Origin: a virus
Taxonomy: Duplodnaviria; Heunggongvirae; Uroviricota; Caudoviricetes
Direction: 5' to 3' (one strand)
IMG/VR virus record: IMGVR_UViG_638341086_000015
Coordinates: 1 to 46,383 of that record
DNA: 46,383 nt
Positions 40,119 to 40,793 of this stretch are shown one piece after another. Numbering within the stretch: the first letter of the stretch is position 1; every line of letters starts with the position of its first letter. A model generated the notes under the pieces. The model had not been told where the DNA came from and made no database searches. It saw only the letters and a list, made by a program, of their open reading frames with translations. The position numbers and the translations under genes are program-made.

Positions 40119-40793
40119 ATGAAAAACACTATCAGCGAACGTATTCGGAATCGTCGAAAAGACGTTGGATTAACCCAACAGCAGGTTGCGAAAGCAATCG
40201 GCATATCTCGTGTATCCGTAACAAAATGGGAAAATGGCTCTTCAAAACCTGACGGTGAGAATTTGTATCTACTGTCAAAATTGCTTTCCAAATCTCCTGA
40301 ATGGATTCTTTATGGAAAGGACGGTCACGATAAAGCCGATGATCTGCGTCTGAATCAGTACCCTTACATTAGTGACAACATCGCCCGGTTGCCCGTTTTA
40401 ACGTGGGAACAGGCTGGTTATTGGGATATGAGTTGTCCAGTAACCGAGATTCCTGGTATTAAGAATTGGGTTGATGTCATGACAAAAACCGCTGAAAACT
40501 CTTTTTTATTGCATGTTGAGGGAGATGCGATGACAAACTCTAACGGCCTCCCAACCATCCCCGACGGATCTACCGTGCTGATCACACCATGCTCAAGTAA
40601 CATTAGAGAACTGGTGGGAAAAATAATCTTAATCCAATTGGAAGGAACGCCAAACGTAACACTAAAAAAAGTTGCGATTGACGGACCAAACATCTATCTG
40701 TTGTCACTGAATCCGCTTTACAAACCCATCGAACTGAATGGTGGTTACACCATTAAAGGTAAAGTTTCACAAATACATCAATACTTAGACTGA
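40119..40793 (+). CDS. cI: CI-type prophage repressor (N-terminal XRE HTH, C-terminal LexA/S24-like domain)
   Basis: HTH LTQQQVAKAIGISRVSVTKWENG; C-terminal S24-like fold with LLHVEGDAMTNSNG and downstream Lys (TLKKV). Start ambiguous: ATG 40119 (leaderless, after the second palindrome) or ATG 40077. Confidence 0.8.
   Translation: MKNTISERIRNRRKDVGLTQQQVAKAIGISRVSVTKWENGSSKPDGENLYLLSKLLSKSPEWILYGKDGHDKADDLRLNQYPYISDNIARLPVLTWEQAGYWDMSCPVTEIPGIKNWVDVMTKTAENSFLLHVEGDAMTNSNGLPTIPDGSTVLITPCSSNIRELVGKIILIQLEGTPNVTLKKVAIDGPNIYLLSLNPLYKPIELNGGYTIKGKVSQIHQYLD

What the first reader, a model, noticed from the sequence alone, without database searches (positions are those of the whole stretch)
40119..40793. 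cI repressor whose LexA-type peptidase motif reads GDAM instead of GDSM
LexA-like repressors self-cleave using a Ser nucleophile in a G-(D/N)-S-M motif and a downstream Lys. This repressor has the surrounding context (LLHVEGDAMTNSNG...TLKKV) but Ala (GCG) in place of Ser, a one-base difference from TCG. If real, the repressor would be non-cleavable, implying SOS-uninducible lysogeny or induction by another route such as an antirepressor.
Basis: partly seen in the sequence, partly recalled or inferred. Interest (0 to 1): 0.6.

Follow-up and report, generated by a model that had tools for sequence, protein, structure and literature searches.

The report
Prophage repressor missing its self-cleavage serine
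This E. coli prophage's master repressor is an otherwise intact lambda-CI-type protein whose self-cleaving serine is naturally replaced by alanine, so DNA damage probably cannot switch the prophage on directly; repressors that cannot cleave themselves are already known, so this is a well-supported but moderately novel case.

Summary
The ORF at 40119-40793 (+) (RefSeq calls it from 40077) encodes an HTH_3 + Peptidase_S24 repressor. Its GDAM aligns column for column with lambda CI GNSM (Ser149), LexA GMSM (Ser119) and UmuD GDSM (Ser60). The general-base Lys (TLKKV) and the Ala-Gly scissile bond (EQAG|YW) are kept.

It is not a sequencing error: 680 of 682 complete E. coli genomes carrying this allele match a 63-nt probe across the GCG codon exactly. 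One of the two others was checked and its mismatch lies elsewhere.

It is not decay either. Two Ala-type alleles differ by dS 0.77 in the C-terminal domain with dN/dS 0.05, and three conserved GTAAC-N4-GTTAC palindromes flank the gene as candidate operators.

A Ser-type sister allele (GDSM) sits in the same module in only 8 genomes, and the catalytic codon changed at least twice in this small clade.

About 15% of the related full-length relatives sampled also lack the Ser. N15 CB is a characterised precedent with a degenerate S24 domain, and Sakai Sp14 CI also lacks the Ser.

No canonical LexA box or recognisable antirepressor lies in the window.

Verdict: a fixed, selected, non-self-cleaving CI repressor; a new member of a known kind. 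How the prophage is induced is unresolved.

The parts
40119..40793 (+). CI-type immunity repressor gene (224 aa from Met15). RefSeq annotates the 238-aa form starting at 40077 (WP_000103686.1, 'LexA family protein').
   Evidence: ORF list; Pfam HTH_3 + Peptidase_S24; lambda CI is the best solved relative; RefSeq annotation. A conserved palindrome at 40105-40118 directly abuts ATG 40119 and lies inside the 14-codon extension, which favours the shorter form.
40143..40307 (+). [quoted passage not shown]
   Evidence: Pfam HTH_3 E 3.8e-17; P22 C2 N-domain E 1.4e-12; Foldseek 3jxb rmsd 0.6 A over 65 columns.
40413..40418 (+). Retained Ala113-Gly114 (GCT GGT), the counterpart of the lambda Ala111-Gly112 scissile bond.
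   Evidence: Alignments; LPVLTWEQAG is conserved in all Ala-type and Ser-type alleles.
40392..40766 (+). Peptidase_S24-fold C-terminal domain (residues 106-230), catalytically dead by inference.
   Evidence: Pfam 61 bits; AF2 model pLDDT 92.4; Foldseek lambda CI CTD 1kca rmsd 1.7 A; dN/dS 0.05 between two Ala-type alleles.
40521..40532 (+). G-D-A-M motif. The Ala151 codon GCG at 40527-40529 replaces the nucleophile Ser.
   Evidence: Sequence; alignments; 680/682 genomes exact.
40665..40667 (+). Retained Lys197 (AAA), the counterpart of lambda Lys192 and LexA Lys156.
   Evidence: Invariant column in alignment A1; Lys in 115 of 123 relatives.
40057..40070 (.). Candidate operator 1 (GTAACAATAGTTAC) between cro and cI.
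   Evidence: Three exact GTAAC-N4-GTTAC palindromes in 46 kb, all flanking cI. With up to 1 mismatch the window has 4 matches against 0.58 expected from shuffles. The same relative positions recur in most related loci. Repressor binding was not tested.
40105..40118 (.). Candidate operator 2 (GTAACATTGGTTAC), abutting ATG 40119.
   Evidence: It accounts for the apparent 'NIGY' conservation in the N-terminal extension of homologs.
40797..40821 (+). Intrinsic terminator hairpin after the cI stop codon, followed by a T run.
   Evidence: RNA fold dG -15.1 kcal/mol, z -5.65.
40868..40881 (.). Candidate leftward operator (GTAACTCTTGTTAC) upstream of the DUF1391-dicB-ydfD-exo-xis-int operon.
39812..40027 (-). 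Divergent cro gene (71 aa, P22_Cro family).
   Evidence: Pfam P22_Cro E 2.9e-16.
39390..39815 (-). YdaT-family gene (141 aa), the CII analogue of this type of immunity region.
   Evidence: Pfam YdaT_toxin E 7.4e-10. YdaS and YdaT were shown to be Cro and CII analogues in CP-933P (PMC8630535).

Best explanation
The gene encodes the lysogeny-maintaining repressor of a complete-looking, effector-carrying lambdoid prophage. The window runs from tccP/espFU to int. The N-terminal HTH domain would bind the GTAAC-N4-GTTAC palindromes on both sides of the gene and shut off the divergent cro-ydaT-replication operon and the leftward dicB-exo-xis-int operon. The C-terminal domain keeps the LexA/CI S24 fold, which in lambda provides dimerisation and cooperative binding. 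Because the nucleophile Ser is Ala, it cannot carry out RecA*-stimulated self-cleavage. The lysis-lysogeny switch is therefore not wired directly to the SOS response: a natural 'ind-' repressor. Any derepression must come from spontaneous switching or from a factor acting on the intact protein, such as an antirepressor encoded elsewhere. Shown here: the motif register, fixation of the allele, purifying selection on the domain, the fold, and conserved palindromes. Inferred: loss of cleavage (by analogy with S119A and S149A), operator function, and the induction phenotype.
For: Ala sits at the Ser149/Ser119/Ser60 column, with Lys and Ala-Gly retained. The domain is a confident S24 fold: Pfam 61 bits, AF2 pLDDT 92.4, lambda CI CTD rmsd 1.7 A. 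The allele is fixed: 680/682 genomes are exact at the codon. About 692 complete E. coli genomes match at the identity expected of the Ala type, against 8 with the Ser-type sister allele in the same module. The C-terminal domain is under strong purifying selection after loss of the Ser: window versus P0002, dS 0.77, dN 0.037, dN/dS 0.05. Ala is also kept in a 68%-identical Salmonella allele that uses GCA. The palindrome triple flanks the gene in most related loci of both types. No canonical LexA box is present; the best position-weight-matrix hits fall within the range seen in shuffled sequence and lie inside coding sequences or between convergent genes. No PHROG antirepressor was found among 10 nin/early ORFs, and none is annotated in a 99.5%-identical prophage. 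None of 50,697 phage genome records carries this repressor at 60% identity or more, although isolated phages share its flanks at 94-96%. Precedents: N15 CB has an S24 domain without Ser or Lys, is non-proteolytic, and N15 is reported to be subject to antirepression (PMC10432266). Sakai prophages whose repressors lack the peptidase domain are not induced by mitomycin C (PMC2669165).
Against: No cleavage or induction experiment exists for this protein; two literature searches found none. The Ala-Gly site, the Lys and the whole cleavage-site region stay conserved across deep divergence. That is not required by a pure dimerisation role and could hint at a residual substrate or RecA*-binding function. 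Absence from phage collections is weak evidence, because the Ser-type sister is absent too. A phage with the equally Ser-less Sp14-type repressor was recovered as a phage genome record, so a dead S24 domain does not by itself prevent particle production. Persistence of Ala-type alleles across E. coli and Salmonella and on several prophage backbones suggests that some means of spread exists.
Confidence: 0.66

Rival explanations
1. The repressor is non-cleavable, but the prophage is still SOS-inducible indirectly. A LexA-controlled or otherwise stress-controlled antirepressor, encoded by an unrecognised small ORF in this prophage or by a co-resident prophage, binds and inactivates the intact repressor, as in N15, 186 and Gifsy.
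For: This is the characterised solution for non-cleavable repressors: Gifsy (PMC3121763) and N15 (PMC10432266). Gifsy antirepressors act in trans on non-cognate repressors. Hosts of this module include polylysogens such as EHEC-type and ST131 strains. Many nin/early ORFs have unknown function. The allele persists on several backbones and in two genera.
Against: The window has no CTGT-N8-ACAG box and nothing within 3 mismatches of the 20-mer consensus. The top position-weight-matrix hits (17.0, 16.3, 15.3 bits) are within the range of shuffled sequence (maximum 18.3) and are badly placed for promoters. No antirepressor family or dinI-like neighbour was detected. In Sakai, lambdoid prophages with peptidase-less repressors were not induced by mitomycin C.
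Confidence: 0.25
2. The protein is a substrate only. It keeps the Ala-Gly bond, the Lys and the pocket so that another S24 enzyme (a Ser-type CI in a mixed oligomer, LexA or UmuD) cleaves it in trans.
For: The cleavage-site region LPVLTWEQAG and the Lys are conserved in all Ala-type alleles despite synonymous saturation. Several other Ser-less relatives have lost the Ala-Gly site. Intermolecular cleavage is documented for LexA/CI fragments and for UmuD (Kim & Little 1993; McDonald et al. 1998; from my own knowledge).
Against: Genomes carry a median of one copy of this gene family, and the Ser-type sister is present in only 8 genomes, so a matched partner is normally absent. Trans-cleavage by LexA or CI is slow in vitro (my own knowledge). 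Lys is retained in most Ser-less relatives regardless of their cleavage site, so it is probably structural.
Confidence: 0.05
3. Residual self-cleavage uses another nucleophile, for example the adjacent Thr153 or Lys-activated water, so the repressor is only slowed, not dead.
For: The rest of the active-site environment is unchanged from the Ser-type sister allele. Five of 123 relatives carry Thr at the nucleophile position.
Against: S-to-A at this position abolishes cleavage in LexA and lambda CI (my own knowledge). S-to-A LexA variants have been solved as folded structures, one of them bound to RecA (1jhh, 6a2s, 8s7g). Lambda CI also has a Thr after the Met (GNSMT), and it does not rescue S149A.
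Confidence: 0.03
4. It is an artefact or decay: a sequencing error at one base, or a recently inactivated gene in a dying prophage.
For: The window contains a few N characters and one gene that is split relative to a close relative.
Against: 680/682 independent complete genomes are identical across the codon. Ala is encoded by GCG and by GCA in diverged alleles. dN/dS is 0.05 in the domain. The conserved palindromes, the cro partner and the terminator are intact.
Confidence: 0.01

Closest known systems
Lambda CI / P22 C2 repressors (MEROPS S24, self-cleaving)
   Same: Two-domain architecture (HTH plus S24 fold). Divergent cro. Ala-Gly linker site and Lys general base. The best sequence and fold matches are 3bdn at E 4e-14 and 1kca at rmsd 1.7 A, and the P22 C2 N-domain is 42% identical.
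   Different: The nucleophile Ser is Ala. Only about 25-35% identical overall. The operator is GTAAC-N4-GTTAC. The CII analogue is YdaT-type.
Engineered LexA S119A / lambda CI S149A non-cleavable mutants
   Same: The identical substitution at the identical position. Such mutants fold normally and one has been solved bound to RecA filaments (PDB 1jhh, 6a2s, 8s7g).
   Different: This one is natural, fixed in about 12.5% of complete E. coli genomes, and maintained under purifying selection.
Phage N15 CB repressor with its antirepressor
   Same: A CI-like HTH_3 + Peptidase_S24 protein that lacks the catalytic Ser. It is experimentally non-proteolytic (PMC10432266).
   Different: CB has also lost the Lys (TIQRL) and the Ala-Gly site. 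N15 is reported to be subject to antirepression, with an SOS-regulon antirepressor (references cited). Neither a LexA box nor an antirepressor is visible here.
Gifsy GfoR/GtgR, DicA/RacR and Sakai Sp4/6/9/10 short repressors
   Same: Lambdoid prophage repressors of enterobacteria that cannot self-cleave. The early-region neighbours are the same (ydaT, dicB, ydfD, exoVIII-type exonuclease).
   Different: Those are roughly 135-160 aa N-domain-only proteins. This one keeps the full C-terminal domain.
Sakai Sp14 / CP-933U repressor ECs_2766
   Same: Same kind of tccP-carrying prophage backbone. HTH_3 + Peptidase_S24 without the Ser (PDDTM). In Sakai, Sp14 was amplified only through replication of the neighbouring Sp15.
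   Different: A different immunity type (28% identity). It has Thr in place of Ser and Ala-Ile in place of Ala-Gly. A 96%-identical repressor occurs in the deposited phage genome vB_EcoS-689R5.

Membership tests
Peptidase S24 (LexA/CI/UmuD) fold family (Pfam PF00717) | Sequence match to the family profile above the curated threshold. | tested here: met
   61 bits against a cut-off of 23.3, residues 106-230 covering profile positions 1-115 of 116.
Peptidase S24 (LexA/CI/UmuD) fold family (Pfam PF00717) | The beta-rich C-terminal fold of LexA and lambda CI. | tested here: met
   AF2 pLDDT 92.4. Foldseek hits: 3bdn, 2hnf, 1kca (rmsd 1.7 A) and LexA C-domains, all with probability 1.00.
Active self-cleaving S24 peptidases (LexA, lambda CI, UmuD) | Nucleophile Ser in the G-(D/N/M)-S-M motif. 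| tested here: not met
   Ala151 (GCG 40527-40529) aligns with Ser149, Ser119 and Ser60.
Active self-cleaving S24 peptidases (LexA, lambda CI, UmuD) | General-base Lys about 37-45 residues downstream. | tested here: met
   Lys197 is an invariant column.
Active self-cleaving S24 peptidases (LexA, lambda CI, UmuD) | Ala-Gly (or Cys-Gly) scissile bond in the linker. | tested here: met
   Ala113-Gly114 aligns with lambda Ala111-Gly112.
Active self-cleaving S24 peptidases (LexA, lambda CI, UmuD) | RecA*-stimulated or alkaline-pH autodigestion. | not testable with these tools
   Needs biochemistry. Predicted negative from the S-to-A precedent.
Lambdoid CI-type immunity repressor | HTH DNA-binding N-domain. 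| tested here: met
   HTH_3 E 3.8e-17; P22 C2 N-domain E 1.4e-12.
Lambdoid CI-type immunity repressor | Divergently transcribed cro and cII analogues, followed by replication genes; early-left operon on the other side. | tested here: met
   cro at 39812-40027 (-), ydaT at 39390-39815 (-), O-like gene at 38248-39324 (-); DUF1391-dicB-ydfD-exo-xis-int on (+).
Lambdoid CI-type immunity repressor | Repeated operators on both sides of the gene. | tested here: inconclusive
   Three exact GTAAC-N4-GTTAC palindromes flank the gene and recur in related loci. Binding was not demonstrated.
Antirepressor-induced prophage switches (N15, 186, Gifsy type) | A repressor that is not cleaved on induction. | tested here: inconclusive
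   Predicted from the missing Ser; not measured.
Antirepressor-induced prophage switches (N15, 186, Gifsy type) | An antirepressor gene under a LexA box in the prophage. | tested here: not met
   No CTGT-N8-ACAG box. Position-weight-matrix hits are within the range of shuffled sequence. No antirepressor family among the scanned ORFs or in the annotation. A trans-acting or novel antirepressor is not excluded.

The most novel reading that the evidence does not exclude
The nucleophile codon behaves as an evolutionary toggle. Within one homoimmune group that shares cro and the candidate operators, Ser (TCA/TCG) and Ala (GCG/GCA) forms have interconverted at least twice by a single first-position change. 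The SOS-blind Ala form greatly outnumbers the Ser form in E. coli genomes (about 692 against 8) and sits on prophages carrying type III effectors. The Ala form would then be a selected 'SOS-proof' state that locks virulence cargo in place. It may still bind RecA* through its intact cleavage-site region and so act as a decoy or be inactivated by sequestration rather than by cleavage.
Probability: 0.15. Interest if true: 0.6.

Novelty: new member of a known kind. Interest (0 to 1): 0.4.

Why it matters
About one in eight complete E. coli genomes, including EHEC/EPEC-type and ST131 strains, carry this immunity module. Genome pipelines label it 'LexA family protein', and prophage surveys that score repressors by domain presence would count it as SOS-inducible; the Sakai study scored the equally Ser-less Sp14 repressor as conserved. 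If the protein is non-cleavable, prophages carrying effectors such as TccP/EspFU would not be mobilised directly by SOS-inducing antibiotics. Predictions of inducibility should then check the catalytic residues and not just the domain. The Ser-type and Ala-type sister alleles, which share cro and the candidate operators, offer a clean natural pair for testing what a catalytically dead S24 domain is kept for.

Tried and rejected
1. Sequencing error: rejected.

2. Misregistered motif with the true Ser elsewhere: rejected. Three independent alignments agree, and no alternative G-x-S-M exists in the domain.

3. Identity with the Sakai Sp14 repressor, suggested by tccP at the left end of the window: rejected. 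Sp14 CI is a different protein, 214 aa and 28% identical.

4. HK022 CI as a natural Ser-less precedent, recalled from memory as non-inducible: rejected. HK022 CI has GDSM and KR.

5. In-cis LexA-controlled antirepressor: searched by pattern, by position-weight matrix, and by PHROG and Pfam scans, and none was found. The matrix hits lie in a convergent-terminator gap (934), inside a coding sequence (30191) and at the dicB/ydfD junction (42313).

6. Literature on this exact protein: none found by accession or by keywords.

7. Absence from phage databases as proof of non-inducibility: downgraded. The Ser-type sister is also absent, and a phage with the Ser-less Sp14-type repressor is deposited.

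8. The sigma-70 promoter scan found nothing in 39700-41300, so the promoter positions remain unassigned.

Full report
**Observation**

The window carries an ORF at 40077..40793 (+) of 238 aa. The DNA reads GGA GAT GCG ATG at 40521-40532. Pfam finds HTH_3 at residues 23-77 and Peptidase_S24 at residues 106-230, the latter at 61 bits against a cut-off of 23.3.

The best solved relative by sequence is full-length lambda repressor 3bdn (E 4.4e-14). The printed alignment places GDAM on GNSM (Ser149), TLKKV on TFKKL (Lys192) and EQAG|YW on VQAG|MF (Ala111-Gly112). A MAFFT alignment of 22 relatives with lambda CI, P22 C2, LexA and UmuD gives the same register, and the Lys is invariant. Their register agrees with the independent PDB alignment.

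An AlphaFold model has mean pLDDT 92.4. It matches lambda CI, its C-terminal domain (1kca, rmsd 1.7 A) and LexA C-domains. The motif is therefore in the catalytic register: Ser is replaced by Ala, while the Lys and the scissile Ala-Gly are present.

**Not an error and not decay**

- The 1.2-kb immunity region is present at 80% coverage or more in 701 of 5,426 complete E. coli genomes.
- A 63-nt probe centred on the codon is exact in 680 of 682 genomes. One of the two single-mismatch genomes was inspected and keeps GCG.
- Two Ala-type alleles (the window and P0002) differ by dS 0.77 in the C-terminal domain but dN only 0.037, giving dN/dS 0.05.
- A 68%-identical Salmonella allele also has Ala, encoded by GCA.
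- So the domain has been kept under strong purifying selection long after the nucleophile was lost.

**Context**

The window is a whole lambdoid prophage. It starts at the ATG of tccP/espFU (1-894, with 4.4 copies of a 141-bp repeat) and ends at the integrase stop codon at 46383. In between lie tail, head, terminase, lysis, Q and nin genes, three tRNA genes and the replication genes.

The repressor is flanked by a divergent P22_Cro-type cro and a YdaT-family gene. YdaS and YdaT were shown to be Cro and CII analogues in CP-933P (PMC8630535). On the other side lies the DUF1391-dicB-ydfD-exonuclease-xis-int operon.

Three exact GTAAC-N4-GTTAC palindromes occur in the 46 kb, and all of them flank cI (40057, 40105, 40868). 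Allowing one mismatch, the window has 4 matches against 0.58 expected from shuffles. The same triple sits at the same relative positions in most related loci, both Ala-type and Ser-type. These are candidate operators.

The palindrome at 40105 abuts ATG 40119. It explains the apparent 'NIGY' conservation in the 14-codon extension, so the shorter ORF is probably the real one. A strong terminator hairpin follows the stop codon.

**Relatives**

GDAM occurs in clusters at 98%, 89% and 68% identity (E. coli and Salmonella). GDSM occurs in clusters at 87% and 65% identity and in all more distant relatives, including Hamiltonella, Arsenophonus and Erwinia.

In complete E. coli genomes, a Ser-type sister allele (TCA) occupies the same module in 8 genomes. 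It has a nearly identical cro and the same palindromes. About 692 genomes match at the identity expected of the Ala type.

With the catalytic codon masked, a neighbour-joining tree groups the sequences as follows:

- The three E. coli Ala alleles group together with 79% bootstrap support.
- The two Ser alleles group together with 100% support.
- The Salmonella Ala allele falls outside both groups.
- A Ser allele is the outgroup.

The codon therefore changed at least twice, either by independent loss or by loss followed by reversion.

Among 123 full-length relatives (clusters from the homolog search plus 50%-identity representatives), 104 have Ser, 8 Ala, 5 Thr and 6 something else. Lys is kept in 115. 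Loss of the nucleophile is thus recurrent, affecting about 15% of the sampled relatives.

**Comparison with what is known**

- N15 CB scores as HTH_3 + Peptidase_S24 but reads GNQIQ and TIQRL, with neither Ser nor Lys. It was shown to be non-proteolytic, and N15 is reported to be subject to antirepression, with an antirepressor belonging to the SOS regulon (PMC10432266 and the references it cites).
- The Sakai Sp14 repressor, on a very similar tccP-carrying backbone, is a different protein that also lacks the Ser (PDDTM, Ala-Ile). The Sakai study scored it as conserved and found Sp14 amplified only through replication of the neighbouring Sp15 (PMC2669165).
- Gifsy, DicA/RacR and Sakai Sp4/6/9/10 repressors are short proteins without the domain. 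Gifsy uses LexA-controlled antirepressors that can act in trans (PMC3121763). The Sakai ones are not induced by mitomycin C.
- HK022 CI, which I suspected from memory, has a normal GDSM.

**Induction route**

The window has no CTGT-N8-ACAG box, and nothing within three mismatches of the 20-mer consensus. I built a position-weight matrix from 20 E. coli LexA sites recalled from memory. Its best hits score 17.0, 16.3 and 15.3 bits, against a maximum of 18.3 in shuffled sequence. They lie inside coding sequences or between convergent genes.

Ten unannotated nin/early ORFs match only PHROGs of unknown function. RefSeq annotation of a prophage that is 99.5% identical across 27234-45085 names no antirepressor and no dinI homologue.

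No record among 50,697 phage genomes has this repressor at 60% identity or more. Yet deposited phages share the flanking replication and dicB regions at 94-96% identity with other repressors in between. This fits poor inducibility but is weak evidence. The rarer Ser-type sister is also absent, and phage vB_EcoS-689R5 carries the Ser-less Sp14-type repressor.

**Conclusion**

The finding is a real, fixed and selected natural Ser-to-Ala substitution in a CI-type repressor. By analogy with LexA S119A and lambda CI S149A, it should not self-cleave. Its C-terminal domain is retained, most likely for oligomerisation and cooperative operator binding.

Whether the prophage is SOS-blind or is induced indirectly through an unseen, possibly trans-acting antirepressor is not resolved. 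Continued conservation of the Ala-Gly region leaves a small chance of trans-cleavage or of a RecA*-binding role.

It belongs to the known class of non-cleavable prophage repressors, with N15 CB as the nearest characterised case. It is notable for three things: how minimal the lesion is, its prevalence (about 12.5% of complete E. coli genomes), and the apparent toggling between Ser and Ala within one immunity group.

Noticed in passing
window 1-894 (+); repeat 256-873: The window begins exactly at the ATG of a TccP/EspFU-type type III effector gene (297 aa). It has 4.4 copies of a 141-bp (47-aa proline-rich) repeat at 99% identity. Sakai tccP (ECs_2715) is a longer gene.
   Followed up: partly
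L015:41344-41988 (Sakai Sp14, ECs_2766); L020:3740-4384 (phage vB_EcoS-689R5): The Sakai Sp14 / CP-933U-type repressor also has a Peptidase_S24 domain without the catalytic Ser (PDDTM) and with Ala-Ile in place of Ala-Gly. It was nevertheless scored as 'conserved' in the 2009 Sakai prophage study. A 96%-identical copy sits in a deposited phage genome.
   Followed up: partly
window 40057-40070, 40105-40118, 40868-40881: Three exact GTAAC-N4-GTTAC palindromes flank the repressor gene and recur in related loci. The middle one lies inside the RefSeq-annotated 238-aa ORF, which suggests that the annotated start at 40077 is 14 codons too early.
   Followed up: partly
window 42313-42332: TGCTGGCAATGAATACAGCA is a LexA-box-like CTG-N10-CAG palindrome scoring 15.3 bits, at the dicB/ydfD gene junction upstream of exo-xis-int. 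The score is within the range of shuffled sequence, and the site is inside coding sequence. It was not examined further.
   Followed up: no
window 32924-33973 (-): The DUF968 gene is intact (1050 bp) in E. coli ML35 but split into two ORFs here (32924-33631 and 33689-33973). Conversely, 35042-35911 is one 289-aa ORF here but fragmented in ML35.
   Followed up: no
window 5497, 5847, 27345, 27377, 43959, 44437, 44439-44440: Isolated N characters occur in the window. Three of the positions fall inside the exonuclease gene and give X residues in its translation. None is near the repressor gene.
   Followed up: no
window 29596-29845 (-): A cluster of three tRNA genes lies downstream of Q: Arg-tct, Arg-tcg and a CAT-anticodon tRNA. 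ARAGORN calls the last one Met; RefSeq and Sakai annotate it as Ile (ileZ type).
   Followed up: partly
window 45085-46383 compared with L001 (ML35): The xis/int end differs from the otherwise 99.5%-identical ML35 prophage, which is integrated at potC. The same immunity module also sits on different replication modules in ST131 strain 5506 and in strain ST130, so it appears to be exchanged among lambdoid backbones.
   Followed up: partly
window 34421-34633 (-) and around 24000-24400: By transfer from the ML35 and Sakai annotations, the prophage carries a hokD-type type I toxin gene and a PerC/PchC-family regulator gene near the terminase.
   Followed up: no
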